DNA of 64,000 nt from an uncultured Candidatus Saccharibacteria bacterium (GTDB taxonomy: Bacteria > Patescibacteriota > Minisyncoccia > Phycocordibacterales > CSBR16-119). The position numbers and the translations under genes were made by a program. The notes below the pieces were generated by a model, which saw only the letters and a list, made by a program, of their open reading frames with translations, did no database searches and was not told the origin of the DNA. Position 1 is the stretch's first letter. Every line of letters starts with the position of its first letter. Location: assembly GCA_964652835.1 (NCBI GenBank), contig CAZZCB010000002.1, positions 584-64,583 on the forward strand, given 5' to 3'. Shown in pieces: positions 12,181-53,896 of the stretch.

Positions 12181-12221
12181 TATCTTGCCTTTTTTGAGTT
12201 GGCGTTGTATAATCTCGAAGA

Positions 12222-12443
12222 ATGTTTATATATATGGGGTCGTTGGCTACGGGTCGACATTCGAGCATTCCCCGCTCTTTAGCACTTGTCCGTTTTGGAC
12301 AAAAAGAAATCACCAAAAGCTTAGGTGATGAAATCAATGAAATGTTCAGAGAACTTTCTTCAGGTGAAGACAGCGAGCTGGATTATGACAGCGGTTTTAT
12401 TATCGAGACCGGAGGTGGAAAATTACCCGCAATATTAGAGTGA
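12222..12443 (+). CDS. Hypothetical small acidic protein (questionable).
   Basis: 73-aa ORF in a 430-bp intergenic block, followed by a strong 12-bp palindromic hairpin at about 12538-12575. Confidence 0.2.
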   Translation: MFIYMGSLATGRHSSIPRSLALVRFGQKEITKSLGDEINEMFRELSSGEDSELDYDSGFIIETGGGKLPAILE

Positions 12444-12634
12444 GTAATTTTGTTTTATTCCTAGGTGTAGACTTAAAATACTTAACCTGGAATTTGTCCG
12501 CAAGGACGAAAAAATAATAGTGAGCATATCGCTGTTATGAAAGACCGAAACCATATGGTTTCGGTCTTTCTCGTTTTGCTGTATTCCACAGTTTTCTGGC
12601 AGAAATATTGTTTTTTATTGGTATAATAAAAATA

Positions 12635-15553
12635 ATGAGGAAAAAAATATCTTTTTTAATTTTAACTATTCTAGCTGTCGGCAGTTTGTATTTCTTAGCT
12701 TTCCCTAAGGGGGATGAGGTTTTTGCGGGGGTTGGTTCAGTCATTGATGTTATTAAAATTGACTCAAGCACAACTAATGGCCCGACCACTTCGGCCGATG
12801 ATAATTACGGATACTCTGTAAGCAATATTGGCGATTTAAACAATGATGGAATTGATGATGTTGCTGTTGGCGCACCTGACGATGATGCCGGAGGATTTAG
12901 TCGAGGAGCGGTTCATATTCACTTTATGAACACAGACGGATCTATTGATTCTACAGTGGAAATAAACGACTTAACTGCGAATGGTCCCACACTTAGTAAT
13001 CTAGATCGTTACGGTACTTCTGTTACAGGTCTTGGCGATTTAAACAATGACGGCGTCATAGATATTGCCGTGGGAGCACCAAGAGATGACTCCGGAGGTG
13101 TTGACTTCGGTGCTTTCTATATTCACTTTATGAACACAGACGGATCTATTGATTCTACAGTGGAAATAAACGACTTAACTGCGAATGGTCCAGACTTTTC
13201 TGGGACGTGGCCTTATTTTGGTTCAAGTATTGACGGATCTGTGGATCTAAACGCAGATGGTGTGAATGATATTATTGTGGGCGCACCGCTTGATGATGAA
13301 AGTGGATTTAACTTCGGTGCTTTCTATATTCTATTTATGAACACGGATGGTTCTGTTGATTCGACTGTTAAAATAAACGACTTAACTACAAATGGTCCGG
13401 CCTTAGATGAAAGCTATTCTTATGGTGCGTCTGTTTCTTTTGTGGGTGACATAAATGATGACGGTGTTGTAGATATTGCAGTAGGGGCAGACAGTGACGG
13501 CTCTCTAGGCGCGGGTAGAGGGTCCATGTTTATTCACTTTATGAACATAGATGGCTCTATTGATTCTACTACCAAAATTAACGGTAACACCAGTAATGGA
13601 CCAACGCTTCTTAATAATGGTCTTTACGGTTCATCTATTAGAGGGATTGGGGATCTAAACGCAGATGGCGTGGAAGATATTGCTGTCGGGGCTCCCGGTG
13701 ACTCATTGTTGGGTGCCACATATTTACATTTTATGAATGAAGATGCTTCTATTTACAGGACATTTAAAATGACATCGGCAAACCAAGATGGACTGGTTCT
13801 GAGTTTAGGTGCCTCATATGGCTATTCCATTGCGCATTTGGGTGATTTTAATAGTGACGGCGTGGAAGATATTGCAGTTGGAGCTTTAAACGAAGAAGCC
13901 TTTTTTATCCATTTTCTGGAATTAACACCAGATGTTTTGGTTACTCAAACAGGATCAGATACTACTGTTTACGAATCAGGTCTGACAGACACAATCAATG
14001 TAGTGCTTGATTTCGTTTCCCCAAATGATCCCGTAACGGTTACGCTTGTAAGCAGTAGTCCAGATATGATTCTCGATCAAACAACTCTCGTTTTCGATAA
14101 TTTAAATTGGGATACTCCCCAAGCTGTTACCATATCTGCTGTAAATGATACCGAAGTGGAAGGAGCAGAGGTTGCAACCATTTCTTATATAGTTGAATCA
14201 GATGATGTTGCTTACGACGGTTACGCCATTTCTAACACATCTGTTAATATTGTAGACAATGATTCTGGTGTTCTCTATACTATTATTATGGATTATGGAA
14301 GTTATGATCTTTCTGAGGACGGAGATGTGAATATTGTAGACGTAGTTCTCTCGGGTGACCCAGGGGATGATGTTACTGTTACTCTTATCCCAGACGATCA
14401 GATTACACTAGATATTGAGGAATTATTTTTTACATCCGGAGACTGGGACCTTCCTCAGACAGTAACTATCACAGCAATCGACGACCTTGATGTTGAAGGT
14501 CTTCACGATGGTCTTATATCTTCAACTTCTTCTTCATTGAACCCAGATTTTAATAATCTTTCTATTGCCGATGTATCTCTTTTAATTCTAGATAACGATG
14601 TTGGTGTAGTTGTGACAGAAACAAATACCACTACTGAAGTCACAGAAGGGGGCGCCACAGACACTTTTAGTGTGGTGATGTCAACGCAGCCTACCGATGA
14701 CGTTGTGGTAACGATGTCTTCAGATGCGCAAATTTCTTTGGATGCAAATATTCTGACATTTACAACTCTAGATTGGGATACCTCGCAAGTGGTCACCGTA
14801 ACAGCCATAAACGACGCAGTTATAGAAGGTAACCACACTGGTCTTGTGGGATTTGCAGTCTCTTCTTTCGACGTAAACTACGATCTCTATTTATTAGAAG
14901 ATGTTACTGCATCTATAACAGATAACGACCCAGAACCTGAGCCAGATCCAGAGCCACAGGCTTCAGGGTCTTCAAGTAGTTCTGGTTTTATAATGCCTCA
15001 TATTCGCTTCAAGGACAAAATAAAGGACACAGATTTTCGGTTTGTAGATTTGGAAGCTTACGCGCCATACACCATAACTTACTTTGAAATATCAAACACT
15101 CCAGATTTCTTCATTAAAGAAACTTATCAAAGAGAATACACACAAAAAGATTTGTATTGGGATCTGTGTAAGGGTCTTTCCTCGTGCGTTTCTGGAGAAA
15201 AATTAGTTTACGCTCGTTTTTACAGCGACGTTGTCGGAGTTCGTGAAGATGTTATATCTATAAACTACAATCCAAAGCTTGAGTGTCCGTACTTTAAAGG
15301 ATTCCTGCGAAAAGGTTCAAAGACAAATGATCCATTAGAAGTGAAAAAAGCACAAGAATTCTTAAATAGGGAATTAAATATCAATCTAGACATAGACGGC
15401 ATTTTTGGAAAGTATACAGATAGGGCCGTTAGAGACTTCCAAGAAAAATATCCACAAGAAATCTTATTCCCATGGCAAGGGTTAACTAAATCAACAGGTT
15501 GGTGGTATATCACAACATCAAGATATGCAAATATTTTAATGGGATGTAAATAA
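12635..15553 (+). CDS. Large secreted FG-GAP/integrin-alpha-like repeat protein with Ig-like/Calx-like middle domains and a C-terminal peptidoglycan-binding-like module.
   Basis: Signal anchor MRKKISFLILTILAVGSLYF. At least 7 repeats of 'DLNNDGxxDxAVGAP.DD..G...GA..IHFMNTDGS'. A PEPEPDPEP linker, 'SGSSSSSG', then the C-terminal 'LEVKKAQEFLN...DGIFGKYTDRAVRDFQ' (PG_binding_1-like). Confidence 0.8.
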   Translation: MRKKISFLILTILAVGSLYFLAFPKGDEVFAGVGSVIDVIKIDSSTTNGPTTSADDNYGYSVSNIGDLNNDGIDDVAVGAPDDDAGGFSRGAVHIHFMNTDGSIDSTVEINDLTANGPTLSNLDRYGTSVTGLGDLNNDGVIDIAVGAPRDDSGGVDFGAFYIHFMNTDGSIDSTVEINDLTANGPDFSGTWPYFGSSIDGSVDLNADGVNDIIVGAPLDDESGFNFGAFYILFMNTDGSVDSTVKINDLTTNGPALDESYSYGASVSFVGDINDDGVVDIAVGADSDGSLGAGRGSMFIHFMNIDGSIDSTTKINGNTSNGPTLLNNGLYGSSIRGIGDLNADGVEDIAVGAPGDSLLGATYLHFMNEDASIYRTFKMTSANQDGLVLSLGASYGYSIAHLGDFNSDGVEDIAVGALNEEAFFIHFLELTPDVLVTQTGSDTTVYESGLTDTINVVLDFVSPNDPVTVTLVSSSPDMILDQTTLVFDNLNWDTPQAVTISAVNDTEVEGAEVATISYIVESDDVAYDGYAISNTSVNIVDNDSGVLYTIIMDYGSYDLSEDGDVNIVDVVLSGDPGDDVTVTLIPDDQITLDIEELFFTSGDWDLPQTVTITAIDDLDVEGLHDGLISSTSSSLNPDFNNLSIADVSLLILDNDVGVVVTETNTTTEVTEGGATDTFSVVMSTQPTDDVVVTMSSDAQISLDANILTFTTLDWDTSQVVTVTAINDAVIEGNHTGLVGFAVSSFDVNYDLYLLEDVTASITDNDPEPEPDPEPQASGSSSSSGFIMPHIRFKDKIKDTDFRFVDLEAYAPYTITYFEISNTPDFFIKETYQREYTQKDLYWDLCKGLSSCVSGEKLVYARFYSDVVGVREDVISINYNPKLECPYFKGFLRKGSKTNDPLEVKKAQEFLNRELNINLDIDGIFGKYTDRAVRDFQEKYPQEILFPWQGLTKSTGWWYITTSRYANILMGCK
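12917..13395 (+). repeat. Intragenic tandem repeats of about 204 bp, with two about-71-bp copies identical at the nucleotide level.
   Basis: 'ATTCACTTTATGAACACAGACGGATCTATTGATTCTACAGTGGAAATAAACGACTTAACTGCGAATGGTCC' occurs at about 12917-12987 and again at about 13121-13191. A diverged third copy is at about 13319-13395. Confidence 0.85.
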
Positions 15554-15556
15554 AAC

Positions 15557-15587
15557 AAAAGAGCCTGAAGGCTCTTTTGTTTTATTT
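15557..15587 (+). terminator. Rho-independent terminator.
   Basis: AAAGAGCC-tgaa-GGCTCTTT plus TGTTTTATTT. Confidence 0.65.
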
Positions 15588-15665
15588 GTGGATAACTAGA
15601 CACGAATATAAAAAATCATTGTTATAATAAAAACAATTATCAGTTAATTCTTAATTACTTTTATT

Positions 15666-17549
15666 ATGAATCAAAACAAAGAAGAGGGAGCTGTGGAGAT
15701 GAGCAAGGGGATGGTAGGTGTTGGGGTCGCTCTGGCACTTGCGCTAATTATTGGATTTTTTGTATATCCGAATATTCTTCATCAAAAAGGAGAACTTGCA
15801 CCAGACGCTCCAAAAAATTTGGCGGGTACAGCGGGAGATGGAATTCTTGATTTAACCTGGACTGCTCCAGCAGACGGAGGGTCTCCTATCACCTCATATA
15901 ATGTTAAATATGATGTTGTTGGTGGTGAAAATGAAACTATTGTTGATACTCGTACAAATAAAGCTTTCTATACTTTGACAGGGCTTACAAATGGTGAGAC
16001 TTATACGGTGTCTGTATCTGCGGTAAACGCAATAGGCGAGGGTCTGTATTCAGCTACGGCAGAATTTGGACTTGATGCGGTTGATGTGGGTGCGCCTCCA
16101 ACCGCCGCAACAAATCTTTCTGCTACAGGAGGTCAAAATAAAGTTAACTTAACCTGGGATGCTGCAGCAGAAAAAGGGTCTGCTATTACTGACTATATTG
16201 TTGGTTATAGAGTGAAAGAAAGTGGTCTTGATTACACAGAAATTTCTACCAAATCAACAAACACAGCATATTCAGTATTAGACCTTGCTGATGCTACTAT
16301 CTATGAGTTTGTTGTTTATGCTGTCAGTGATGCGGGAAATAGTGCGGCCTCTGCTGCTGCTACGGCTACCACTCTACCAGCTCTTGATCCTGGTGTAGAC
16401 CTTTCAATATCTACTGAGCCAACTGTTACCGTAACAAGTAACAGCGCGGAGATAACTTGGGGAACATCAAAATCAGCATCTTCTCAAGTTTACTACGGGG
16501 TAACAGACAGTATGGGGTCAATGACTGAAAAGATGAATACGACTCCGATGGTTAAAGGGCACACAGTAAGCCTCAGCTCCCTTGCTTCTTGTACGATCTA
16601 TGTTTACAAAGTTGCGTCTTTTGACTCTGAGGAAAATATGGTTGAAAGCACGGCTGGTGAATTCACCACTGCGGGCTGTAAAGGAGACGCTTCTGTGATA
16701 ACTTACTCAAAAGACAAAGCAACAGCAGATACTGGGGTTACAGTTACAGCTAAGGTTTCAGGAAGAGGTCTTACTGTTACAGTTCCAGCAGCGGTTGTTA
16801 CAGGATCAGACGTGGCAATCCAAGCACTAAAAGTTTCTAAAGATGAGGTTGTCGCAGAAATAGCGAAACCTGCTGGAAAAGAATGGATTGGTTCACCTTA
16901 CATCCTAAACGCTATCGAAAACGCATCCACAGAAGTAACATCTTTTGATAAGCCGGTAACAGTTTCTATAGATTACCAAAATGAAGATGTTGGAAATGTA
17001 GATCCAAATACGTTAAAGATTTGGCACTATGAAGATGGGGCGGGATGGAGAGAGTTATCTTCTTGTTCTACTTCGTTAAACGGTGTTGGTGGAACTGTGA
17101 CTTGTTCCACAACCTCATTCTCTGTGTTCGGTTTGTTTGGTGAAGAGGGTTCTGGTGGCGGTGATACTGGAGGTGGTGATAATGACCCCACGCCTTCTCC
17201 TTCAAGACCTTCTACTACAACAGGAAGTGTCCCTACAAATCCGATAGTTGTTAATCCTCCAATGGATAACAATGAATATAATTTTACAAAAAATCTATGG
17301 GTAGGAATTCGAGATATGGATGTAAAACTACTACAAAGATTTCTAAACCTAAAAGGATTCACTGTTTCAACAGACGGACCTGGATCAGCGGGGCAGGAAA
17401 CTGAATTCTTCGGAGCTAAAACAAAACAGGCTTTGATCAAGTTTCAAGAAGCTTACAAAGTAAATATTTTAACTCCGATAGGTCTTAATTTAGGAACAGG
17501 ATTCTTCGGGCCTCAGACAAGAAATTATATAAATTCAATGTCTAACTAA
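15666..17549 (+). CDS. Secreted fibronectin-III-repeat surface protein with a C-terminal peptidoglycan-binding-like module.
   Basis: N-terminal TM/signal. Two FN3-like units ('LDLTWTAPADGGSPITSYNVKYD', 'VNLTWDAAAEKGSAITDYIVGYR') and a PAP-N-like FN3 ('AEITWGTSKSASSQVYYG'). A Pro/Thr/Ser linker. C-terminal 'LLQRFLNLKGF...FGAKTKQALIKFQ'. Confidence 0.75.
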   Translation: MNQNKEEGAVEMSKGMVGVGVALALALIIGFFVYPNILHQKGELAPDAPKNLAGTAGDGILDLTWTAPADGGSPITSYNVKYDVVGGENETIVDTRTNKAFYTLTGLTNGETYTVSVSAVNAIGEGLYSATAEFGLDAVDVGAPPTAATNLSATGGQNKVNLTWDAAAEKGSAITDYIVGYRVKESGLDYTEISTKSTNTAYSVLDLADATIYEFVVYAVSDAGNSAASAAATATTLPALDPGVDLSISTEPTVTVTSNSAEITWGTSKSASSQVYYGVTDSMGSMTEKMNTTPMVKGHTVSLSSLASCTIYVYKVASFDSEENMVESTAGEFTTAGCKGDASVITYSKDKATADTGVTVTAKVSGRGLTVTVPAAVVTGSDVAIQALKVSKDEVVAEIAKPAGKEWIGSPYILNAIENASTEVTSFDKPVTVSIDYQNEDVGNVDPNTLKIWHYEDGAGWRELSSCSTSLNGVGGTVTCSTTSFSVFGLFGEEGSGGGDTGGGDNDPTPSPSRPSTTTGSVPTNPIVVNPPMDNNEYNFTKNLWVGIRDMDVKLLQRFLNLKGFTVSTDGPGSAGQETEFFGAKTKQALIKFQEAYKVNILTPIGLNLGTGFFGPQTRNYINSMSN

Positions 17550-17812
17550 ACCTAAAATAAGCTAAATAAAACAGGCACCTTTTTGACAAAGGTGCTTGTT
17601 TTAGTAATATATATAACGATATTTAGTAAGGTACTTGACAAATGGTATACATTTAGTGTATAATCCGTCATGTATAAAAACCCTAAAGAAAAAGTAATAA
17701 GGGTCAGCATTGTTCGTTCAGAGACACAATAAGAGACAAAAAGTCTTTTATAGGTGTCCTTTATCAGTTAGTTATTAGTAGAAAGCTTATTAGTTTTTAA
17801 AAGACATATTAT

Positions 17813-20806
17813 ATGAAGAAATTCAAGAAAAATATCTCAAAGACAATTTTCGCTTCATTCTTTGTTTTACAGTTTGTGGTATCGACAGCGTTCATGCCAC
17901 TTGCTGCTAACGCACAAGAAGTAGCGGCTGAAGAATCTTCGAAAGAAGAAGTCTCAGAGGCTCAAAAAGAGGAAGCGCCAGAGGTGACAGAAGAAGTTGT
18001 CTCAGACGTTAAAGAAGAAATTTTAATAGAAGACATAAAAGACTTAGAAGAGGTTGTCTCTGTCGAATCAACTACAGTTTCAGAAGAAATTGTCCTTGAT
18101 GAATCAGCGGCGCCTGTAAAAGAAACTGAAAGCCCTGTTTTCCAAACAGTAGGTGCTCTAGCTTCTGTAAAAGTTTGTAAGGTGATAATCGACTCAGAAG
18201 GAAATATCGTTTCTGACTGGTCAGCTTATCCTGGAGCAACTTTTTCTACAAATCTTAATTTTCAAGGGGCTCAGTACTCTTTTGAATTTTCAACATCTGG
18301 AGAAATAAATTACGCAGACGGGTATGCTTTCGCTGCTGTTTGTGATACCCAGGAATTTGCAATTGATACTTCAGTAGAAGGTCTTAAGTTTGTTAAATAT
18401 ACAGAAGAAGACCCTGCTGGACCATACTCTTGGGTAAGAAATTACTTCGAGGGTGACGCTCAAGGTGAAACTGGATTGTATAACAATCTTGGTGGGGCAA
18501 TGTTTGCGCCGTTCACATCAGAAGATACTGCTTATGACGGTCAATTCGAATTAAACGGAAATGATAGTGGTTTTGATACTACAACTCTTTTCCTTGTTAA
18601 CGAAGAAATAAAAACCGTTAACCCATCTTGTGATAAAGATTTAAATCTTATTACAAACGGAGGATTTGAAAATCCAAACGTTGGTGGAAACTGGAATATT
18701 TTCCAAGACGGAACATCTGGTCTTGGTTGGATGGTTGCTTGGGAAGGTTCTGCAGGAAATAATTCTGTAGCCAATCTTGAAATCCACGGAGGCGTGGCCG
18801 GATGGGAAGCTTCAGAAGGAAATCAATATGCAGAGCTTGACTCTGACTTTGATGGACCAACTGGCTCAATTCAAAATGAATCAGCATCAACTAGAATTTC
18901 ACAAGTATTAAACACTGTCCCTGGACAAACTTATGAAATATCTTTTGACTTTGCTGCTCGTCCTGGAACTGATTATGCTGACAATCGACTCGGACTATAT
19001 CTTGACGACGTTGCTTGGGATACAAGCTTTACGAGAACAAACGTTGACGGTACACAACCAAACTGGGTTACAATAACAAGAACTTTTACTGCTGTTAAAT
19101 CAACAACAATAATTTCTTTTGCTGACCTAGGTACTCCAGACTCTTTCGGAACTTTACTTGATAACGTTTCTGTAAAATGTATCGATGGAGGTCCAGTGGA
19201 TATAAATATTCCACCAAAAATAGTTGTTAACCCACTTGAAGTTTGTTTACCTCTAACTGCTACAACTTATGACTTCCTGGCAGGAGTTACAGGTGAAGAT
19301 GCAGAAGACGGAACAATTACTTTAACAGAGGCAAATTACACTCACAATATTATTTTTGGAACAGCTGGTACTTATACTATTAACTACACTGTAACTGATA
19401 GCGACGGCGCTACTGCGACTGACTCTCGAACAGTTTTTGTAAAAGAAAATTGCGGAGGTGAGCCAGAAGAATGTCCAGCAATCATTAGAGTTAGTGAAAA
19501 TGGAAGAGAAGGAATGGTAGAAGTTTCAAGACTTAACCCAAGATGGGTAAACTCAATCCCAGGAAGCTCTGCAGAATGGGTATGGAACAATGCTGCTATC
19601 CCAGTTTTCCCTGATCGACAAAACGGAGGAACATTCACAGTTACTGAAACATTTAATATTGTTGGTAACCCAGAAGCTTCTGAAATAAAGATCGCTGCTG
19701 ATAACGTGTACTCTGTGGTTGTAAACGGTAACACTGTTTACGGTAACCCAGCGCTAACACCAGCAGATATTGAAAACATTACATCTCCAGAGTCTCGATT
19801 CGGAGTTGTATACTCACACGCAATTCCAGCTAATTTACTAAACACTGGATCAAACACAATCGTAATACGAGCTGTTAATCAAGAGTGGCCACTAGTTCTA
19901 ACATCAGCAAATGTAGACACTAACCCAGCAGGATTAATGTATGCACTTACAGTAAACGAAGATTGTGATGACGGCGATGGTGGTGATGGAGGAGGAAGTG
20001 ACGATTTAACAGTCGTTGTTTCAGACTCTTGTGTTGAAAGAGGAACAGAAAACTTTGACTTTTTGTCAGGCATAACTGTTACTCACACACTTCTAAATGG
20101 TAATGTAACTCTTGTAGAAGGTGATAACGTAACAATTACAGAATCTGTTGACTTCAATGTAAACGGAAACTACACAGTAACTTACTCATTCAATATTCTA
20201 GGAGAACAAGTTTCAGAAGACCGAATAATCTCAATACAAGATGATTGTGGTAACGGTGGAGGCGGAGGAAATGGTGGAGGAGGTTCTTCTTCATCAGGTT
20301 CTCGAAGAAATTCTGACGGTGAAGTATTAGGTGCTACAAGTTGTGTTGCATTTACTACATACAACCGATCAGGAAACACAGGAGGAGAAATTAAAGCCCT
20401 ACAAACATTCCTAAACCTATACATGAACGCAGGATTAACAGTTGATGGAGTTTATGGAGCAACAACAGTACAAGCTGTTCACGATTTCCAAGCTTTCCAC
20501 TGGAAAGAAGTTATCGATCCATGGACACCACCACTTTCTCCTAACACTACAGGATGGCAATACAAGACAACAAGAATGACTATAAACGCTATTATTGATT
20601 GTCCAGAAGCCCCAGTATACCTAGAAGATCCAGGCGTGATGTACCAAGTACTAGAAGTAACAGACCAAAAAGAACTAACAACAGGCGAACTTGAAACAAT
20701 CTACAATTTACTAGCAGAGGCTCAGTCAGGAAATGTTCTTGGCGCTTCATCAGTAAATAGTATTGATTACTCAAATCCAAATTTTGACCTAATGTTCGGA
20801 AAATAA
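17813..20806 (+). CDS. Large secreted surface protein: acidic N-terminal region, a DUF642-like jelly-roll domain, Ig-like domains, and the C-terminal peptidoglycan-binding-like module. Paralog of 24159..26051.
   Basis: Signal peptide MKKFKKNISKTIFASFFVLQFVVSTAFMPLAANA. 'NGGFENP...GW...LEIHGG..GWEA.EG.QYAELDSD'. 'GGGGSSSSGSRRN' then 'GEIKALQTFLN...DGVYGATTVQAVHDFQ'. A strong terminator lies at 20860-20899. Confidence 0.8.
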   Translation: MKKFKKNISKTIFASFFVLQFVVSTAFMPLAANAQEVAAEESSKEEVSEAQKEEAPEVTEEVVSDVKEEILIEDIKDLEEVVSVESTTVSEEIVLDESAAPVKETESPVFQTVGALASVKVCKVIIDSEGNIVSDWSAYPGATFSTNLNFQGAQYSFEFSTSGEINYADGYAFAAVCDTQEFAIDTSVEGLKFVKYTEEDPAGPYSWVRNYFEGDAQGETGLYNNLGGAMFAPFTSEDTAYDGQFELNGNDSGFDTTTLFLVNEEIKTVNPSCDKDLNLITNGGFENPNVGGNWNIFQDGTSGLGWMVAWEGSAGNNSVANLEIHGGVAGWEASEGNQYAELDSDFDGPTGSIQNESASTRISQVLNTVPGQTYEISFDFAARPGTDYADNRLGLYLDDVAWDTSFTRTNVDGTQPNWVTITRTFTAVKSTTIISFADLGTPDSFGTLLDNVSVKCIDGGPVDINIPPKIVVNPLEVCLPLTATTYDFLAGVTGEDAEDGTITLTEANYTHNIIFGTAGTYTINYTVTDSDGATATDSRTVFVKENCGGEPEECPAIIRVSENGREGMVEVSRLNPRWVNSIPGSSAEWVWNNAAIPVFPDRQNGGTFTVTETFNIVGNPEASEIKIAADNVYSVVVNGNTVYGNPALTPADIENITSPESRFGVVYSHAIPANLLNTGSNTIVIRAVNQEWPLVLTSANVDTNPAGLMYALTVNEDCDDGDGGDGGGSDDLTVVVSDSCVERGTENFDFLSGITVTHTLLNGNVTLVEGDNVTITESVDFNVNGNYTVTYSFNILGEQVSEDRIISIQDDCGNGGGGGNGGGGSSSSGSRRNSDGEVLGATSCVAFTTYNRSGNTGGEIKALQTFLNLYMNAGLTVDGVYGATTVQAVHDFQAFHWKEVIDPWTPPLSPNTTGWQYKTTRMTINAIIDCPEAPVYLEDPGVMYQVLEVTDQKELTTGELETIYNLLAEAQSGNVLGASSVNSIDYSNPNFDLMFGK

Positions 20807-20955
20807 AACTAAACAAACAGAAGTAAGATTTGTTCTTGATGTAAAATGTACTTTATACAAAAGACCCGCCGGCGCTTGCGCCGGCGGGTCTTTTGTTTTC
20901 CACAAACTTTTAAAATATTTTTATTTTTTAATTGCTATAATATAAACAGATATTT

Positions 20956-21453
20956 ATGAAAAATAAAAGTTTTTCAAAAACCAAATTTAACATTGCTTGG
21001 GCTTCTATCGTCACTATCTTTATTGGCGCTGTTGTTTATGTACCAGCGCTCAAGTTTTCTCAAAAAGAAAAAGAAGTTGTTTACTATAGAGTTCCTGTTT
21101 TTGTTAACATGACGCCTTCTACTGAAAATGGAGGTCAGCCTACAAATTCAGAGTCAGAAAAAGAAGAACCTTTAATAAAAGTATCTAATTCTCGTATCAC
21201 TAAAGATTTAAAATTAGGTGACGTTGACGAAGAAGTTAAGCTCCTACAAGAGTATCTTAATGGTAGAGGATTTCTTGTTGCAGAGTCTGGACCTGGCTCA
21301 CCAGGTCAAGAGACGACAAGGTTCGGCGCCGGAACTCGCGACGCCCTGATAAAGTTCCAAGAAGCAAATGCGGAGCTTATCCTAAAACCTTTTGGTCTAA
21401 AAGAGGGAACAGGAGTGGTGGGTAAAATGACAAGAGATTTAATTAACTCATAA
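20956..21453 (+). CDS. Small membrane-anchored protein with a peptidoglycan-binding-like C-terminal module.
   Basis: N-terminal TM (IAWASIVTIFIGAVVYV). C-terminal 'VKLLQEYLNGRGFLVAESGPGSPGQETTRFGAGTRDALIKFQ' is nearly the same module as the 15666 gene's C-terminus. Confidence 0.6.
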   Translation: MKNKSFSKTKFNIAWASIVTIFIGAVVYVPALKFSQKEKEVVYYRVPVFVNMTPSTENGGQPTNSESEKEEPLIKVSNSRITKDLKLGDVDEEVKLLQEYLNGRGFLVAESGPGSPGQETTRFGAGTRDALIKFQEANAELILKPFGLKEGTGVVGKMTRDLINS

Positions 21454-21456
21454 TAT

Positions 21457-22824
21457 ATGAAAAAAATATTTACAGTGTTCTTACTAGCAGTGATTTATTT
21501 CGCTCCTTTTTCTGCTCGTGCAGAAAGCATTCCCCCTTCAGCTCCGCTTAATTTAGAGATTACAAACCTCGGAGATTTAACAGTCATGCTTTCTTGGGAT
21601 CCGCCGGCATCAGAAGGTGATTCACCAGTGGGTGGGTACATTATTTACTATGTAGAAAGGGTTTACGGTGATACTTTTATGATAGAGGGTCCAGTTACAA
21701 CTTTCACTACGGGAAAATTAAAGGCTGGAGCTTCTTATGACTTCTGGGTTGTTGCATATAACGCCTATGGGGAAGGTGACATATCAGAGAGAGTTAAAGT
21801 CGTGCCCACAGAAGACGTTACTGGGCCTGTTATAACAGTAGCTCCACAAGTTTCTTCTGTAACAGACAAAACTGCAAATATATATTGGGAAACAGACGAA
21901 TATGCTTCTACATATTTAAATTTTGATGTCCATGGAAATGGTCCACACAACTCAATAAATATTAAAGGTCTAAGTCTTACTCACGATGTTTCCTTAAGTG
22001 GTCTTTTGCCTTGTACTACTTATTTTTACAACGTTACGAGTTCTGATGCCGCTTCAAATACCGTAAGGTCGGATGTAAGTTCGTTCAAGACTAACGGATG
22101 CCTCGGCGCTATTTTAGATGAAATAGAAAGTAGTCTCGGTCTTCCAGTCGATTCGCTGTCTGTAAATTTTGAAAGAAGTGGTGTTGAGGTTTCTCTTCTT
22201 CCAGATTCTTTTGATCTAGAATCTATTTTCCAAATTAAAAAATTAAGCATAGCCGATGTCGATGCAAACGTCGGATGTCCAGCCGGAAACAAACCTATCG
22301 GAGGTCGGATCTACGATATAAAACTTCTAGAAGAATATGACAGACAAGCATCTCTTAAAAAACCAGCGACGGTAACAATGTCTTACGACCACTCAGAACT
22401 CTCTGGTGTTGATGAATCTTTGATCTCAATGTTCCACTACACAGACGAGTCAGGATGGGTAAAGCTTAACTCTTGTACCTTGGACAATGAAAGAGATGAG
22501 ATAACTTGTGAGACAGAGAGCTTTTCAAAATTTATGATTTCTTTTGGTGAAGAATATAAATGCAAGCCTCTTATGAAAAATCTTTCATTTGGAAGCTATC
22601 ATGTAGATGTATTTTCTCTTCAGGAATTTTTAAATAAAAATGGTTTTATGGATTCTTTTAAAGATTCTACTTTTAAGGGGGTAGAAGAGAAGAGGTTATT
22701 CGATGGAAAAACCGCCAAGGCTCTCCGCAGTTTCCAGGAAGCCTCTGGGATAAATGGAATAGAAAAAACACTCAGATTTCTGGGTCCAAAAACAAGAGAT
22801 TTTATAAATAACCAAAATAAATAG
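21457..22824 (+). CDS. Secreted FN3 / purple-acid-phosphatase-N-like repeat protein with a peptidoglycan-binding-like C-terminus.
   Basis: Signal peptide. 'LTVMLSWDPPASEGDSPVGGYIIYY' (FN3), 'ANIYWETDEYASTYLNFDVHG' (PAP-N-like). C-terminal 'LQEFLNKNGF...GKTAKALRSFQ'. Confidence 0.7.
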   Translation: MKKIFTVFLLAVIYFAPFSARAESIPPSAPLNLEITNLGDLTVMLSWDPPASEGDSPVGGYIIYYVERVYGDTFMIEGPVTTFTTGKLKAGASYDFWVVAYNAYGEGDISERVKVVPTEDVTGPVITVAPQVSSVTDKTANIYWETDEYASTYLNFDVHGNGPHNSINIKGLSLTHDVSLSGLLPCTTYFYNVTSSDAASNTVRSDVSSFKTNGCLGAILDEIESSLGLPVDSLSVNFERSGVEVSLLPDSFDLESIFQIKKLSIADVDANVGCPAGNKPIGGRIYDIKLLEEYDRQASLKKPATVTMSYDHSELSGVDESLISMFHYTDESGWVKLNSCTLDNERDEITCETESFSKFMISFGEEYKCKPLMKNLSFGSYHVDVFSLQEFLNKNGFMDSFKDSTFKGVEEKRLFDGKTAKALRSFQEASGINGIEKTLRFLGPKTRDFINNQNK

Positions 22825-22904
22825 TTAAATATCAAAAATATTGGTAAAATTAGTCTAGTGAACTAGGTACTTGATTTTTATTTTATTTATGTTATAATAT
22901 AGAG

Positions 22905-24044
22905 ATGAAAAAAAGCTTTAAAAAATACTTTATCCCAAACCAAGAAAACGACCATAAACCTCACTTTCTAAGAGAAAGGTCTGTTCTTGTTATTTTGGCT
23001 ATTGCCTCAATACTTTTATTCGCCTCAGTCATCGGTACTTACGTTGTTAAAAACTCAAAATTCTTAGCTGCTATACAATCAGCCTTTTTGGTTGATCTTG
23101 CAAACGAAGACAGGGCAGAGCAAGGTGCTGGCAAGCTTGTTATGAACGACGAACTTGTCTTAGCTGCTCAGTTAAAAGCAAATGATATGGCACAAAAAAG
23201 TTACTTTGCCCACACGAGCCCTGAAGGCTTAACTCCTTGGCATTGGTTCGGACAAGCTGGCTACGACTATATCTACGCTGGAGAAAACTTGGCTGTTAAC
23301 TTCAATAGATCTGAAGATGTTCAAAGAGCGTGGATGAATTCACCTCTACACCGAGCAAACATTTTGAATAATAGATATAAAGAAATCGGTATCGCTACTG
23401 CAGAAGGTATGTATAAGGGTGAAAAGACAACCTTCGTTGTTCAGATGTTCGGAACGCCGACTACTACAAATCTTAATACTACTCCCGCCCCTCAAACAGC
23501 GTCAGTAAATGATATTCCCGACGCAGAGGAGCCAGCAGAGCTCGTCGCTTCTGTTGATTTAAATCCAGAGGTGGAAGGAGAATCTATTGTAAAACCTGAA
23601 GTTAAAAAAGAAGCCCCGGTAGAATCTACGCCAGAGCCTTCTGTAAAAACTCAAACAAAAGTTGCGCAGATAGAAAAACCAACTCAGGCCGAAACTAAAA
23701 CAGAAGTTTCTACAGAGGTGTCTGGTCCTGAAAACATTTTCACTGAGACAACAAACCCTCTATACGAAGGTCAGAATGTCGCCGGAGCGGAAGACCCTCA
23801 AACTGAAGTAACTTATACAAATTGGTTTGAAAGATTTTTAGTGAATCCTGGAGATGCGGTAAACAAAGCTTATGTAATACTCTTCGTAATAATCCTATTT
23901 TCTATAATTCTGAAGATATTTATCGCGATAAATAAGCAACATCCAAAAAATATTGCTTACGGAGTATTGCTCCTAATCCTGGTTCTGATATTTATGTATA
24001 TCAACCAAGAGATATTCATACAGCCAGTAGTGGCATCAGTCTAA
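22905..24044 (+). CDS. CAP/SCP/PR-1 (YkwD-like) domain protein with an N-terminal TM, a Thr/Pro/Glu-rich linker and a C-terminal TM.
   Basis: 'LAAQLKANDMAQKSYFAHTSPEGLTPWHWFGQAGYDYIYAGENLAVNFNRSEDVQRAWMNSPLHRANIL' matches the CAP-domain consensus (GENIA...WMNSPGHRANIL). Confidence 0.75.
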   Translation: MKKSFKKYFIPNQENDHKPHFLRERSVLVILAIASILLFASVIGTYVVKNSKFLAAIQSAFLVDLANEDRAEQGAGKLVMNDELVLAAQLKANDMAQKSYFAHTSPEGLTPWHWFGQAGYDYIYAGENLAVNFNRSEDVQRAWMNSPLHRANILNNRYKEIGIATAEGMYKGEKTTFVVQMFGTPTTTNLNTTPAPQTASVNDIPDAEEPAELVASVDLNPEVEGESIVKPEVKKEAPVESTPEPSVKTQTKVAQIEKPTQAETKTEVSTEVSGPENIFTETTNPLYEGQNVAGAEDPQTEVTYTNWFERFLVNPGDAVNKAYVILFVIILFSIILKIFIAINKQHPKNIAYGVLLLILVLIFMYINQEIFIQPVVASV

Positions 24045-24158
24045 TAAAACAAAACAAAAAATACCGTATGTCAATACGGTATTTTTGTTGACAACATGAA
24101 AATATCAGAACATAATGATAAATAAGGAAGATTACTTTTAATAAAAGTTCTTAAGGGC

Positions 24159-26051
24159 ATGCAAATGTCATATTTATCATTTAATTTTATTAATATTATG
24201 AAAAGAAATATTTTAACTAAGGTTTTGAGTTTGTTTACTATATTTGCGATGACTTTTAACGTCGCTTTTGCAGCTAACGAAACTATTACTATTTGTCACG
24301 TTCCACCGGGAAATGAGGGAAATCCTCAAACTTTGAATATATCTATTAATGCTTGGGAAAACGCTCATGATTCTGGAACGGGCGAGCATTCAAACGATTA
24401 TGAAGGGCCATGTGATGGCGATGAAGAACCAGCACCCTTGGTTTGTGCGGAAAATCTAAGCATAGTAAATGGTGGTTTTGAAAACCCTTTAGTAGGGAAT
24501 GAATCAGGATGGCAACTTTTCCCAAACGGAACAGTTGATTTGGGCTGGACGGTTACTTGGGTTTCTCCAGATGGAAATGCTCCATCAGAGGCAAACCTAG
24601 AAATTCACGGCGGTGTTAATGGATGGGAAGCTTTAGAAGGAGGGCAATACGCAGAGCTTGGATCAGATTATGGAGACCCTGCAGGAGGATTAGCTGCGAC
24701 TAAAATTTCTCAAGAATTCGATACAATAGAAGGAGCCACTTATGAGATTGCTTACTCTTTTGCTGCAAGACCAAACACATCAGAAGATGAAAATATTTTA
24801 AAAGTTTACATAAATGGTGACGAAGTAGAGTCTCATGGGCCAGTTGCCGGAGGAGAATCTAATCTTTGGTCTACTTACTTTATTGAATTCGCAGCCACAG
24901 GAGACTCAACAGAAATTTCTTTTGAAGACGCGGGAACAGTAAATTCAGTCGGAACATTTCTAGATGATGTTTCTGTTATCTGTGTTTCTGATGCAGAAGT
25001 TCCAGAAGTATGTTTACCGATTGTTAGAATCAGTGAAAACGGAAGAGAAGGAATGGTAAAAGTTACAAAGGTTAACCCAAGATGGGTTCCTTCAATCGCC
25101 GGAACTAACGCTAAGTGGGTATGGAACAATGCATCAATACCAGTATTTCCAGACAGACAAGATGGTGGAGTGTTCACAGTTAATGAAACAATCAATATTG
25201 TAGGAAATCCACAAGACTCTGAAATCAAAATAGCTGCAGACAACGTATACTCTGTTGTTGTAAACGGTGACACTGTTTACGCTTACAGTGGTAACCCAGC
25301 TTTGACTCCAGGAGATATCGAAAATATTCCATCTACTGATTCTAAGTTTTCTGTTGTGCATGAACACACAATTCCAGCTAACTATTTAAACACAGGATTA
25401 AACACAATCAAGATAAGAGCTGTAAACCAAAAATGGACACCAGTTCTAACATCAGAAAGTACAGCTACAAACCCAGCAGGTTTAATGTATGCACTGACTA
25501 TTAATGAAGATTGTGATGGTGGGGGAGATCAAGAAAACGATGAACCAGCAGATGAACAACCAGAAGAAAATGACGAAAGTGAGCCAAACGATCCAGTTTC
25601 TGAAACTGAAGACGAATCTGTAAATATAGAAGAAGATAATAACCAAAATTCAGGAAGCTCTTCATCAGGCTCACGAGCCTCTGGAGGCGGAGCAGTTCTA
25701 GGAGCTTCTACAGAAGGAGAAGTTCTCGGAGCTTGTGTTCCTTTCGCTATGTATCACAAAAAAGGTGATGTTGGTGGGGAGGTTGCAAAAATCCAAGAAT
25801 TCTTAAATGAACAAATAAATGCAGGACTTACAGTTGACGGAGTTTATAACGAAGCAACTGAAAAAGCTGTTCACTCTTTCCAACAAAAATATTTCGAGCA
25901 AGTAATCTCACCTTGGGTTCCGTCATTTATGGCGAGAACAACAGGAAAGTGGTACAAGACAACTAGAATGATGGCAAACAAAATTATTGATTGTCCAGAA
26001 GCTCCAGTTTATCTTGAAGACCCAAAGATTATATACGAAGTTAAATGGTAA
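24159..26051 (+). CDS. Secreted surface protein with a DUF642-like jelly-roll domain, a conserved middle domain and a peptidoglycan-binding-like C-terminus. Paralog of 17813..20806.
   Basis: Signal anchor. 'NGGFENPLVGNESGWQLF...LEIHGGVNGWEALEGGQYAELGSD'. An about-170-aa block about 60% identical to the 17813 gene ('VRISENGREGMVKVTKVNPRWV...NPAGLMYALTINEDCD'). An acidic DE-rich linker, 'GSSSSGSRASGG', then 'EVAKIQEFLN...DGVYNEATEKAVHSFQ'. Confidence 0.8.
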   Translation: MQMSYLSFNFINIMKRNILTKVLSLFTIFAMTFNVAFAANETITICHVPPGNEGNPQTLNISINAWENAHDSGTGEHSNDYEGPCDGDEEPAPLVCAENLSIVNGGFENPLVGNESGWQLFPNGTVDLGWTVTWVSPDGNAPSEANLEIHGGVNGWEALEGGQYAELGSDYGDPAGGLAATKISQEFDTIEGATYEIAYSFAARPNTSEDENILKVYINGDEVESHGPVAGGESNLWSTYFIEFAATGDSTEISFEDAGTVNSVGTFLDDVSVICVSDAEVPEVCLPIVRISENGREGMVKVTKVNPRWVPSIAGTNAKWVWNNASIPVFPDRQDGGVFTVNETINIVGNPQDSEIKIAADNVYSVVVNGDTVYAYSGNPALTPGDIENIPSTDSKFSVVHEHTIPANYLNTGLNTIKIRAVNQKWTPVLTSESTATNPAGLMYALTINEDCDGGGDQENDEPADEQPEENDESEPNDPVSETEDESVNIEEDNNQNSGSSSSGSRASGGGAVLGASTEGEVLGACVPFAMYHKKGDVGGEVAKIQEFLNEQINAGLTVDGVYNEATEKAVHSFQQKYFEQVISPWVPSFMARTTGKWYKTTRMMANKIIDCPEAPVYLEDPKIIYEVKW

Positions 26052-26080
26052 AAACCTCAAAGTAACTAAAAAGTAATAGA

Positions 26081-26116
26081 AAAGCCCGGCGCGAAGCGCC
26101 GGGCTTTTCTATTTTG
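26081..26116 (+). terminator. Rho-independent terminator.
   Basis: AAAGCCCGGCGC-gaa-GCGCCGGGCTTTTCTATTTTG. Confidence 0.75.
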
Positions 26117-47720: not shown

Positions 47721-47722
47721 GC

Positions 47723-48730: not shown

Positions 48731-48737
48731 TTACTTT

Positions 48738-52074: not shown

Positions 52075-52149
52075 GTAAAAACAGCAATGCTAATAATGGC
52101 TTACTAGGTATTGACATTTAACCCGAAATGTGATAGTGTGCACGGGTAT

Positions 52150-53199: not shown

Positions 53200-53209
53200 T
53201 TTATATTAT

Positions 53210-53476: not shown

Positions 53477-53523
53477 AAAGTCTGCTATAATAAAAACGAA
53501 GATTTATAATTATTTAAAAATAT

Positions 53524-53676: not shown

Positions 53677-53783
53677 AGATTTATTATTAAAATATTTTTT
53701 TAAAAAATATATGGCAAAGGGTCAACAAAGAAGTAATAAAGAAGCTAAGAAACCAAAAAAGCCAAAAGCAAAGTAGTGGATAA

Positions 53784-53819: not shown

Positions 53820-53896
53820 CCTTGCTTTTTTACATAAACAAGTGTATGATGTCAATACTTATTAATAAATAGACTAGAAACGCTGGTCTTTCACAT

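What the first reader, a model, noticed from the sequence alone, without database searches (positions are those of the whole stretch)
12635..26051. Tandem locus of seven secreted surface proteins sharing a C-terminal peptidoglycan-binding-like anchor and a Ser-rich SSSSGSR pre-anchor motif
Seven consecutive + strand genes, each with its own AT-rich promoter and most with their own terminator, encode secreted or anchored multi-domain proteins. They are 12635-15553 (FG-GAP), 15666-17549 (FN3), 17813-20806 (DUF642-like), 20956-21453, 21457-22824 (FN3/PAP-N), 22905-24044 (CAP/YkwD) and 24159-26051 (DUF642-like).

Six of them end in the same about-60-70-aa module, 'LQxFLN..G....DGxFG..T..AV..FQ'. 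This is the PG_binding_1 signature; some copies have an extended loop ('GPGSxGQET.FG'). An eighth member at 42028-44223 has the most canonical copy.

In four members the anchor is preceded by a near-identical low-complexity motif followed by a Cys: GGGSSSSGSRRN, GSSSSGSRASGG, SSSSSGSRPRIN and SGSSSSSG. That looks like a shared processing, glycosylation or sorting signal rather than a random linker.

Integrin-like beta-propellers, FN3, CAP and carbohydrate-binding jelly-rolls, all wall-anchored, are exactly what one would expect for host or partner-cell attachment in an episymbiotic reduced-genome bacterium. I think this is the most likely candidate for the 'new system' in the window.
Basis: partly seen in the sequence, partly recalled or inferred. 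Interest (0 to 1): 0.8.

Follow-up and report, generated by a model that had tools for sequence, protein, structure and literature searches.

The report
Peptidoglycan-anchored surface protein gene cluster

Summary
Seven + strand genes (12635-26051) plus one at 42028-44223 encode proteins with N-terminal signal peptides or membrane anchors. Seven of the eight carry a C-terminal PG_binding_1 module, supported by Pfam and by an AlphaFold model whose best PDB match is the SleB peptidoglycan-binding domain. The CAP protein lacks the module.

The SSSSGSR motif is real, is encoded by mixed Ser codons, and is conserved in orthologs of two unrelated families. G-x-V-L-G-[A/E/T]-S-T ... Cys. The VLG element is 39-fold enriched before such modules in 1.1 Mb of sequence, almost all from Patescibacteria MAGs. 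It occurs only with a Cys-flanked (probably disulfide-clamped) subtype of the module and lies in predicted disordered linker.

A homolog elsewhere carries the same linker but ends in LAETG plus a membrane helix, with a sortase gene next door. This argues that the module anchors proteins to the cell's own wall.

The cluster is syntenic in relatives. Anchors are 87-99% identical, passengers 58-96%, and g5 is present or absent.

Overall this is a known kind of system (wall-anchored adhesin-like proteins of Patescibacteria) with an apparently undescribed linker motif whose function is unresolved.

The parts
12635..15553 (+). g1: signal peptide, FG-GAP beta-propeller, three repeated beta domains, Ser run, Ig-like 'YFEISNTPDF' domain and Cys-clamped PG_binding_1 module
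   Evidence: The exact 972-aa product is on record. Orthologs in L004 and L007.
14960..15001 (+). g1 boundary motif ASGSSSSSGFIMPH
   Evidence: Conserved as SSSSG[YF]I[ML]PH in L004 and L007, weaker in L017 and L018.
15284..15547 (+). g1 PG_binding_1 module, Cys884 to Cys971
   Evidence: Pfam 28.4 bits; alignment A2.
15666..17549 (+). g2: N-terminal membrane anchor, fn3 x2, Pur_ac_phosph_N-like domain, G/S/P-rich linker and PG_binding_1 of the 'GPGSxGQET' long-loop type without Cys
   Evidence: Orthologs carry SSGSIPK or SSGSRPT in the linker.
17277..17546 (+). g2 PG_binding_1 module (long-loop type)
   Evidence: Pfam 25.7 bits; coordinates.
17813..20806 (+). g3: signal peptide, acidic region, choice-of-anchor C/DUF642-like jelly roll, Ig-like domains, second beta domain, pre-anchor motif, Cys-clamped module and a 67-aa tail
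20273..20341 (+). g3 pre-anchor signature GGGGSSSSGSRRNSDGEVLGATS
   Evidence: Conserved in P0083, P0084, P0089, P0249 and P0250.
20342..20602 (+). g3 PG_binding_1 module, Cys844 to Cys930
   Evidence: Pfam 28.1 bits.
20726..20752 (+). Second copy of the VLG element (SGNVLGASS) in the g3 C-terminal tail
   Evidence: Conserved in P0083, P0084, P0249 and P0250.
20956..21453 (+). g4: 165-aa protein made of an N-terminal membrane helix, a short linker and a PG_binding_1 module (long-loop type)
   Evidence: Pfam 37.4 bits. Large family of similar proteins of about 160 aa. Conserved at this position in L004, L007, L009 and L014-L018.
21457..22824 (+). g5: signal peptide, fn3, Pur_ac_phosph_N-like domain and a degenerate PG_binding_1 module. 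Variable gene, absent from L004 and L007.
   Evidence: Partial ortholog in L016.
22905..24044 (+). g6: membrane-anchored CAP/YkwD-family protein (one N-terminal and two C-terminal helices) with no PG-binding module
   Evidence: Pfam CAP 64.4 bits; YkwD model 109 bits, below its cut-off. A CAP gene also sits beside the sortase-anchored DUF642 homolog in L072.
24159..26051 (+). g7: signal peptide, Cys/His-containing N-terminal element, DUF642/choice-of-anchor C jelly roll, second beta domain, acidic disordered linker, pre-anchor motif and Cys-clamped module
25650..25733 (+). g7 pre-anchor signature SGSSSSGSRASGGGAVLGASTEGEVLGA (two VLG copies)
   Evidence: pLDDT below 50 in both models. Conserved in P0081, P0082, P0085, P0086, P0189 and P0243.
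25734..25994 (+). g7 PG_binding_1 module, Cys526 to Cys612
   Evidence: Model pLDDT 72-90. Best PDB match is the SleB N-terminal domain, 6tci, TM 0.85.
42028..44223 (+). g8: signal peptide, PD40 beta-propeller, choice-of-anchor U domain (aa 519-617), Ser-run motif and canonical Cys-flanked PG_binding_1
   Evidence: Orthologs.
43903..43944 (+). g8 motif SSSGSSSSSGSRPR, shortly after the choice-of-anchor U domain
   Evidence: Kept as [GS]n-SGS[R/I]P[RKS] in 15 of 16 full-length orthologs at 49-90% identity.
43993..44217 (+). g8 PG_binding_1 module, Cys656 to Cys730
   Evidence: Pfam 53.6 bits, profile positions 4-57 of 57.

Best explanation
This is a chromosomal cluster of cell-envelope proteins in a Patescibacteria (Paceibacterota-like) bacterium that makes its own peptidoglycan. 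The cluster is conserved in relatives.

Proposed mechanism.
1. Each protein is exported by Sec (inferred from the N-terminal sequences).
2. It is then held at the cell's own wall non-covalently by a C-terminal PG_binding_1 domain. The fold is shown; binding is inferred from the family.
3. In g1, g3, g7 and g8 the domain belongs to a subtype, here seen almost only in Patescibacteria, that is bracketed by two cysteines. These probably form a disulfide tying its N- and C-termini together (inferred from strict co-occurrence).
4. A disordered G/S-rich stalk connects the anchor to outward-facing passenger domains: FG-GAP and PD40 propellers, FN3/Ig domains and CBM-like jelly rolls. These passengers diverge quickly between strains, as expected of adhesins or lectins exposed to partners, phages or predators.
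5. g4 (membrane helix plus PG-binding domain) most likely tethers membrane to wall.

At the passenger-anchor junction sits a conserved bipartite linear motif: [G/S]n-SGS[R/I], then one or two copies of G-x-V-L-G-[A/E/T]-S-T, then Cys. My best guess for the motif, at about 35%, is a recognition site for an enzyme that acts at the anchor junction. That would be proteolytic release of the passenger, as PPEP-1/ZmpI does upstream of sortase anchors, with or without O-glycosylation of the Ser run. The alternative is a passive spacer.
For: Anchor identity.
- Pfam PG_binding_1 matches in 7 of 8 proteins.
- AlphaFold model of g7 residues 495-630 has pLDDT 72-90 between the two Cys.
- The top Foldseek hits are all PG_binding_1 domains: SleB 6tci (TM 0.85, rmsd 1.9), SleC, phiKZ gp144, CtpB, 5tv7 and 1lbu.

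Anchoring to the cell's own wall.
- Ddl and MurJ flank the locus.
- g8 carries a choice-of-anchor U domain above the curated cut-off. g3 and g7 match choice-of-anchor C.
- Homolog P0095 has the same G/S-R...GEVLG...GEVLGES linker but ends in LAETG, a membrane helix and KRRNAKI. It is followed by a sortase gene and a CAP gene.

Disulfide clamp. Of 104 modules, 77 have both Cys, 23 have neither, 4 have only the N-side Cys (3 of them truncated) and 0 have only the C-side Cys.

The motif.
- It is conserved in g3/g7 orthologs and g8 orthologs.
- [VI]LG[AETVSD] occurs 69 times in 5,009 pre-anchor residues vs 17 times in 48,007 upstream residues of the same proteins.
- It is found in 55 of 78 Cys-type modules and 0 of 23 non-Cys modules, and 15 proteins have two copies.
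- 23 of 26 SGS[RI] hits lie 4-39 aa upstream of the module.
- It lies in disordered linker.

Diversifying passengers.
- Flanking Ddl, the metallophosphoesterase (MPE) and MurJ are 96-99% identical between strains. Passengers are 58-96% identical and anchors 87-99%.
- g5 is present or absent between strains.
- The g7 passenger resembles CBM4, CBM22 and CBM51.

Precedent for cleavage sites clustered directly upstream of a wall anchor: PMC4591827.
Against: - No binding, localisation or processing data exist for these proteins.
- Three PG_binding_1 matches fall below or just below Pfam's cut-off (g5 18.9, g7 22.9 vs 23; g3's DUF642 25.5 vs 27).
- Signal peptides were judged by eye.
- The enrichment statistics are not corrected for shared ancestry, and the related loci were fetched with a g7-type module pattern. 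As a result 20-36 of the 49 motif-bearing passengers fall in one g3/g7-like family.
- No candidate protease or glycosyltransferase is encoded in the cluster, and no sortase is in the window.
- In P0193 the VLG element precedes each of two tandem modules, and in g3 it also follows the module. Both fit a simple 'release the passenger' site poorly.
- The gap between the VLG element and the Cys is usually only 1-4 residues, so the element could be a structural cap of the domain that AlphaFold failed to place.
Confidence: 0.62

Rival explanations
1. The PG-binding modules target the peptidoglycan of a host or partner bacterium rather than the producer's own wall. The proteins would then act as bridging adhesins (g2 and g4 stay membrane-anchored) or as secreted factors that coat the host wall.
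For: - Patescibacteria are typically episymbionts.
- PG-binding-domain extracellular proteins are among the most highly expressed genes of Paceibacteria co-cultured with hosts and were proposed to mediate attachment (PMC10936435).
- g1, g3, g5, g7 and g8 have no retention device other than the module.
Against: - The sortase-anchored homolog with the same linker and the choice-of-anchor domains point to the module standing in for a self-wall anchor.
- The module is at the C-terminal end, behind the disordered stalk, like a wall anchor. The variable, lectin-like domains are at the far end.
- g4 has only about 45 residues between its membrane helix and the module.
- The hosts reported in PMC10936435 are archaea, which lack murein.
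Confidence: 0.15
2. The pre-anchor signature has no function of its own. It would be a flexible G/S spacer plus the N-terminal edge of the PG-binding domain, inherited with the anchor whenever the anchor cassette is shuffled between genes.
For: - The region is predicted disordered.
- The VLG element occurs only with one module subtype and usually 1-4 residues before its first Cys. This is what a domain-edge element would look like.
- Many carriers share g3/g7-like passengers.
Against: - The VLG element is kept while the neighbouring linker residues vary freely, and its distance to the Cys ranges from 1 to 15 residues.
- It is duplicated in 15 proteins.
- It also occurs after the module in g3.
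- It also occurs before a sortase signal (P0095) and in proteins with other C-terminal ends (L044, with a membrane helix; L055).
- The SGS[R/I]P element is conserved in g8 orthologs at about 50% identity, directly after an unrelated domain and without any VLG.
Confidence: 0.25
3. The proteins are wall-modifying enzymes, with the PG-binding domain serving its usual role of directing a catalytic domain to peptidoglycan.
For: PG_binding_1 is best known from lytic enzymes, L,D-transpeptidases and proteases (hits). PMC10936435 calls such proteins 'extracellular enzymes'.
Against: No catalytic family was detected by Pfam or NCBIfam in g1-g5, g7 or g8. Only propellers, FN3/Ig domains and CBM-like jelly rolls were found. 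The only enzyme-like family in the cluster, CAP (g6), lacks the module.
Confidence: 0.05

Closest known systems
PG_binding_1 (PF01471) domains of SleB, SleC, phiKZ gp144, CtpB and Zn DD-peptidase
   Same: Same helical fold (TM 0.85 to SleB 6tci) and the sequence signature LQxxLN...DGxFGxxTxxAVxxFQ. Expected non-covalent binding to peptidoglycan.
   Different: - Here the domain is the C-terminal anchor of non-enzymatic adhesin-like proteins.
- The g1/g3/g7 subtype has an added 'PW...TGW/YxYKTT...N...C' extension and a flanking Cys pair.
- The g2/g4 subtype has a 'GPGSxGQET' loop insertion.
Sortase/LPXTG (LAXTG) cell-wall sorting and the NCBIfam 'choice-of-anchor' domain families
   Same: - Same overall layout: signal peptide, then passenger, then low-complexity stalk, then C-terminal wall anchor.
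- g8 passes the choice-of-anchor U model. g3 and g7 match choice-of-anchor C.
- A homolog uses LAETG plus a neighbouring sortase behind the same linker.
   Different: None of the window's proteins has an LPXTG-like motif, a C-terminal hydrophobic helix or a basic tail, and the window has no sortase gene. Anchoring would be non-covalent.
PPEP-1/ZmpI substrates CD2831 and CD3246 of Clostridioides difficile
   Same: Short motifs, often repeated, confined to the segment directly upstream of the wall anchor. In C. difficile they are protease sites that release the adhesin (PMC4591827).
   Different: The motif sequence differs (Pro-Pro sites vs GxVLGAST). No protease is known or encoded nearby, cleavage has not been shown, and the anchor type differs.
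Non-covalent wall-binding modules of Gram-positive surface proteins (LysM, GW, CWB2, SLH)
   Same: A repertoire of surface proteins shares one wall-binding module while the functional domains vary, and the genes are clustered.
   Different: The fold is different. There is usually a single module rather than tandem repeats, and a conserved pre-anchor motif is present.
PG-binding-domain extracellular proteins of Paceibacteria (Kuroda et al. 2024, PMC10936435)
   Same: Same phylum. Extracellular proteins with PG-binding, Ig-like and PKD domains, highly expressed and proposed to mediate host attachment.
   Different: I did not compare the sequences of those proteins. In the passages I read, that paper does not describe the gene cluster, the Cys clamp or the pre-anchor motif.

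Membership tests
PG_binding_1 (PF01471) | Sequence match at or above the Pfam gathering score of 23 bits | tested here: met
   g1 28.4, g2 25.7, g3 28.1, g4 37.4 and g8 53.6 bits. g7 is marginal at 22.9 and g5 sub-threshold at 18.9. All seven align to each other.
PG_binding_1 (PF01471) | Compact helical fold of solved PG-binding domains | tested here: met
   In the g7 module model, residues 526-612 have pLDDT 72-90. Foldseek gives SleB N-terminal domain 6tci with TM 0.85, rmsd 1.9 A and probability 1.0, and the other top hits are also PG_binding_1 domains. E-values are weak (0.012) because the domain is small.
PG_binding_1 (PF01471) | Binds peptidoglycan | not testable with these tools
   Needs pull-down of the module with purified sacculi.
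Sortase-dependent LPXTG surface proteins | C-terminal LPXTG-like motif, hydrophobic helix and basic tail | tested here: not met
   None in g1-g8. A regex scan of all ORFs in the fetched loci found none. Only homolog P0095 has one.
Sortase-dependent LPXTG surface proteins | Sortase gene in the genome or neighbourhood | tested here: not met
   No sortase among the window's ORFs of 100 aa or more. The rest of the genome was not available.
Choice-of-anchor U (NF041766) | Score above the curated cut-off of 32 bits, with the domain placed just before the anchor | tested here: met
   g8 scores 58.8 bits over residues 519-617, just upstream of the Ser-run motif at residues 626-639.
Choice-of-anchor C (TIGR04362) / DUF642 (PF04862) | Score above the curated cut-off (120 bits for TIGR04362, 27 bits for PF04862) | tested here: inconclusive
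   TIGR04362 gives 62-63 bits over the full model length but below its cut-off. PF04862 gives 29.5 for g7 (met) and 25.5 for g3 (not met). The fold is a CBM-like jelly roll.
FG-GAP / integrin-alpha-type beta-propeller (PF01839) | Multiple FG-GAP repeats above the cut-off | tested here: met
   g1 scores 96.9 bits with 6 stretches. I did not model the propeller fold itself.
CAP / YkwD (PF00188, TIGR02909) | CAP domain above the cut-off | tested here: met
   g6 scores 64.4 bits on Pfam CAP against a cut-off of 21.1. The YkwD subfamily model gives 109 bits, below its cut-off of 171.
Bacterial lipoprotein (lipobox) | L-[AS]-[GA]-C at the end of an N-terminal signal peptide | tested here: not met
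   'LGAC' in g7 resembles a lipobox but lies about 520 residues into the protein with no preceding hydrophobic segment. In most relatives the Cys is 3-4 residues further on.
PPEP-1-type sheddase substrates | Experimentally mapped cleavage at repeated motifs upstream of the anchor, and a cognate protease | not testable with these tools
   Only the positional analogy is shown. No protease was identified.

The most novel reading that the evidence does not exclude
The bipartite signature ([G/S]n-SGS[R/I](P), then one or two copies of GxVLG[A/E/T]ST, directly before a disulfide-clamped PG-binding domain, a sortase signal or a membrane anchor) would be an undescribed sorting or processing signal widespread in Patescibacteria. 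A dedicated, still unknown enzyme would read it. That enzyme could be a sheddase that releases adhesins, or a transpeptidase that uses the PG-binding domain as a targeting and leaving group to fix passengers covalently to the wall.
Probability: 0.25. Interest if true: 0.7.

Novelty: new variant of a known kind. Interest (0 to 1): 0.45.

Why it matters
Patescibacteria make up a large share of bacterial diversity. Most are thought to live attached to other cells, and how they build and display their attachment surface is largely unknown.

This cluster gives a concrete, conserved set of candidate surface proteins. It also gives a clear rule for finding more of them: a Cys-clamped PG_binding_1 module preceded by GxVLGAST and an SGS[R/I] run. 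Finally, it gives a natural experiment, the swap between a PG-binding domain and a sortase signal behind the same linker, which says where the proteins sit.

If the linker motif is a processing or modification site, it would point to a wall-sorting or adhesin-release step in this phylum that can be tested by proteomics on existing co-cultures. If it is only a spacer, the finding remains an ordinary, though well-defined, surface-protein repertoire.

Tried and rejected
- A profile search with all seven modules returned almost only g4-like proteins of about 160 aa, so it said nothing about the motif.
- In the exhaustive profile search, the top of the list was dominated by proteins with many tandem PG-binding repeats. 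Only about 20 single-module hits were useful.
- DNA microsatellite or phase-variation reading of the Ser run: rejected because the Ser codons are mixed.
- Lipobox reading of 'VLGAC': rejected on position and on variable spacing.
- A search for further LPXTG-type proteins with the motif found only P0095.
- A hmmalign-based test of the Cys pair failed because local alignments were truncated. I replaced it with a window-based count.
- Single-linkage clustering of passengers at loose thresholds merged nearly everything. Stricter coverage gave 14-23 families.
- Literature searches for the motif strings, and for PG_binding_1 in Patescibacteria, found no description of it. This covers only the held library.
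- Rfam found no RNA element in or near the locus.

Full report
**1. What is in the window**

- g1 (12635-15553): six FG-GAP stretches.
- g2 (15666-17549): two fn3 domains and a purple-acid-phosphatase-N-like domain.
- g3 (17813-20806): Ig-like domains and a DUF642-like jelly roll.
- g4 (20956-21453): only a PG-binding domain.
- g5 (21457-22824): fn3 and a purple-acid-phosphatase-N-like domain.
- g6 (22905-24044): a CAP/YkwD domain.
- g7 (24159-26051): DUF642.
- g8 (42028-44223): PD40 repeats.

PG_binding_1 is detected in all except g6. The scores are 18.9-53.6 bits, and g5 and g7 fall under the 23-bit cut-off. The seven modules align with each other. A profile built from them finds no eighth copy in the six-frame translation of the window.

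All eight proteins begin with a hydrophobic segment. Five look like cleavable signal peptides (g1, g3, g5, g7, g8) and three like signal anchors (g2, g4, g6). I judged this by eye.

g8 carries a 'choice-of-anchor U' domain above the cut-off, just upstream of its Ser run. g3 and g7 match 'choice-of-anchor C' over the full model length, although below its cut-off.

**2. The organism and the setting**

The locus lies between a membrane metallophosphoesterase (MPE) and LeuRS/MurJ. UvrABC, Ddl, TopA, DprA, SerRS and other housekeeping genes are nearby. The cell therefore makes peptidoglycan.

A scan of one genome per species with the module alignment returned 63 loci. Nearly all come from MAGs titled Paceibacterota, Parcubacteria, Patescibacteria or (in third-party assemblies) Saccharibacteria. 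The closest ones (L009, L010, L013, L014) are syntenic with the window. Phylum-level assignment to Patescibacteria is well supported; I leave the class open.

**3. The anchor**

An AlphaFold model of g7 residues 495-630, built on a 47-sequence alignment, folds only between Cys526 and Cys612 (pLDDT 72-90). Everything before and after is below 50.

Foldseek against the PDB returns solved PG_binding_1 domains as its top hits. The best is the SleB N-terminal domain 6tci (TM 0.85 on the target, rmsd 1.9 A). SleC, phiKZ gp144, CtpB, 5tv7 and 1lbu follow.

Two subtypes exist in the window. g2, g4 and (in degenerate form) g5 have a 'GPGSxGQET' loop insertion and no cysteines. g1, g3 and g7 have a 'PW...TG[WY]xYKTT...N...C' extension, and g8 a shorter canonical form. 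All four of these are bracketed by a Cys pair.

I examined 104 modules from 1.1 Mb of related sequence. Both cysteines are present in 77 and neither in 23. Only the first is present in 4 (three truncated genes plus g5), and only the second in none. That pattern is what a disulfide joining the two ends of the domain would give. It is not proof, and the count is not corrected for shared ancestry.

**4. The pre-anchor signature**

It is encoded by mixed Ser codons, so selection acts on the protein rather than on a DNA repeat.

Orthologs keep it.
- The g3/g7 family shows [G/S]n-SSSGSR(R) followed by G-E-V-L-G-A-(x)0-2-C down to about 40% overall identity.
- In 15 of 16 full-length g8 orthologs at 49-90% identity, the choice-of-anchor U domain is followed by [G/S]n-SGS[R/I]-P-[RKS] while the next 15-25 residues vary freely.
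- g2 orthologs carry SSGSIPK or SSGSRPT in the same place.
- g1 orthologs carry SSSSG[YF]I[ML]PH.

In the related loci, 55 of 101 first modules have [VI]LG[AETVSD] 24-42 residues upstream of the conserved Gln of 'LQxFLN'. The within-protein contrast is 69 hits in 5,009 pre-anchor residues against 17 in 48,007 residues further upstream, a 39-fold difference. The stricter form G.[VI]LG[AETVSD][STAD] occurs 56 times in module-bearing ORFs and 4 times in 364,000 other residues, and one of those four is a frameshifted homolog.

The element accompanies only the Cys-type module: 55 of 78 against 0 of 23. It is duplicated in 15 proteins and lies 1-15 residues before the first Cys, most often 3. Both AlphaFold runs leave it unstructured.

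Motif carriers have at least 14-23 distinguishable passenger families. However, a g3/g7-like family dominates, partly because the loci were retrieved with a g7-type pattern.

**5. Where the anchor points**

The most informative relative is P0095, which also has a DUF642/choice-of-anchor C domain. Its C-terminus reads ...GGGGGGGSSHRSGSVAGGEVLGDGIGGAGEVLGES-LAETG-(membrane helix)-KRRNAKI. The next gene on its contig is a sortase (79 bits), and two genes further on is a CAP protein. This is the same DUF642-CAP pairing as g6/g7.

The same passenger and the same linker are therefore found with either a covalent self-wall sorting signal or the PG-binding module. Together with the choice-of-anchor domains and the organism's own murein genes, this favours anchoring to the producer's wall over binding to a host wall.

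The VLG element also occurs ahead of a C-terminal membrane anchor (L044), ahead of an acidic coiled coil (L055), and after the module in the g3 subfamily. It behaves like a junction motif rather than a strict part of the domain.

**6. Evolution of the cluster**

The gene order MPE-g1-g2-g3-g4-(g5)-g6-g7-LeuRS-MurJ recurs in L004 and L007, and in part in L009 and L014-L018.
- g5 is missing from L004 and L007.
- Flanking Ddl, MPE and MurJ are 96-99% identical to the window.
- g1 is 61-96% identical, g2 77-84% and g7 70-72%.
- Split by region, the anchors are 87-99% identical and the passengers 58-96%.
- g3 homologs range from 606 to 1,810 residues.

A stable anchor with fast-changing, size-variable outer domains is the usual signature of exposed surface proteins. 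The full-length g7 model shows two jelly rolls whose best PDB matches are carbohydrate-binding modules CBM4, CBM22 and CBM51.

**7. Mechanism, and what is shown versus inferred**

Shown:
- the domain content and the anchor fold;
- the co-occurrence of the Cys pair;
- the conservation, position, enrichment and predicted disorder of the motif;
- the swap between PG-binding module and sortase signal;
- the conserved synteny and the asymmetric divergence.

Inferred: Sec export, non-covalent binding to the cell's own peptidoglycan, the disulfide, and the adhesin or lectin role.

For the motif I favour a recognition site for an enzyme that acts at the anchor junction, at about 35%. The closest precedent is C. 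difficile. There, six or seven ZmpI/PPEP-1 cleavage sites are confined to the segment directly upstream of the sortase motif of CD2831 and CD3246, and they control release of the adhesins (PMC4591827). O-glycosylation of the Ser run is compatible with this. A passive spacer or domain edge (about 25%) and host-wall targeting of the module (about 15%) remain open. An enzymatic role for the proteins themselves is unlikely.

**8. Comparison with what is known, and novelty**

Surface proteins with FN3, integrin-like and lectin-like domains are routinely proposed as host-interaction factors in Patescibacteria (PMC13059738). Extracellular proteins with PG-binding domains are reported among the most highly expressed genes of Paceibacteria (PMC10936435). 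The cluster is therefore a new example of a known kind.

As far as the held library shows, three things have not been described. The first is the bipartite pre-anchor signature. The second is its exclusive association with a Cys-bracketed, extended PG_binding_1 subtype. The third is the natural anchor swap behind the same linker. These make it a variant worth a modest follow-up, not a new system.

Noticed in passing
window 26149-29112 (+), residues 429-550: The LeuRS gene carries a NUDIX hydrolase domain (Pfam 53.1 bits) inserted right after the editing domain. The L004 ortholog (1,014 aa) has it too, while the L007 ortholog (869 aa) lacks it. This explains why LeuRS is only 79-82% identical while its neighbours are 96-99%.
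   Followed up: partly
window 21457-22824 (+): g5 is a presence/absence gene. It is missing from the otherwise syntenic L004 and L007, where g4 is followed by the CAP gene after about 90 bp. A partial ortholog exists in L016.
   Followed up: partly
window 24282-24410 (+), g7 residues about 42-85; also P0081, L009, L011: A small Cys/His element, 'CHVPPGNEGNPQTLNI..AWENAH....H..DYEGPC', recurs in g7-family proteins. It sits at the N-terminus in some and just before the linker in others ('NPQTMTLPEGAANAHLNNHDGDYPGEC'). No family match. The model has low confidence there.
   Followed up: no
window 15002-15283 (+), g1 residues 790-883; also L017, L018, L028, L032, L033, L042: A beta domain of about 90 aa marked by '[YF][YF]EISNTPDF ... 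VYARF/VYVKYR' sits directly before the anchor in g1. A similar one ('ELANTPDFA...KTVYVKYR') sits before the anchor in unrelated Patescibacteria proteins. Pfam does not detect it.
   Followed up: no
window 22905-24044 (+) and L072 6919-7968: A membrane-anchored CAP/YkwD protein is paired with DUF642 surface proteins both here and beside the sortase-anchored homolog. It is more conserved between strains (92-97%) than its neighbours. Its role is unknown. It is the only enzyme-like family in the cluster.
   Followed up: partly
window 45426-49621: Copper-handling block made of a P-type ATPase with an HMA domain, an HMA-DsbD_2 membrane protein and a cupredoxin-like protein. It is followed on the - strand by a 161-aa ORF with only a recombinase zinc-ribbon domain, possibly a remnant of a mobile element.
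   Followed up: no
window 52001-54000: Lowest G+C in the window (0.315 against about 0.39), around a family-2 glycosyltransferase gene (52111-53199).
   Followed up: no
window 12181-12634, hairpin 12539-12570: A 450-bp gap upstream of g1 has a 14-bp-stem hairpin just before the start codon. L004 has a 75-aa ORF called in the equivalent gap. No Rfam match.
   Followed up: no
window 26075-26113: A perfect 18-bp-stem palindromic hairpin lies between g7 and LeuRS. It is likely a bidirectional terminator that closes the cluster.
   Followed up: no
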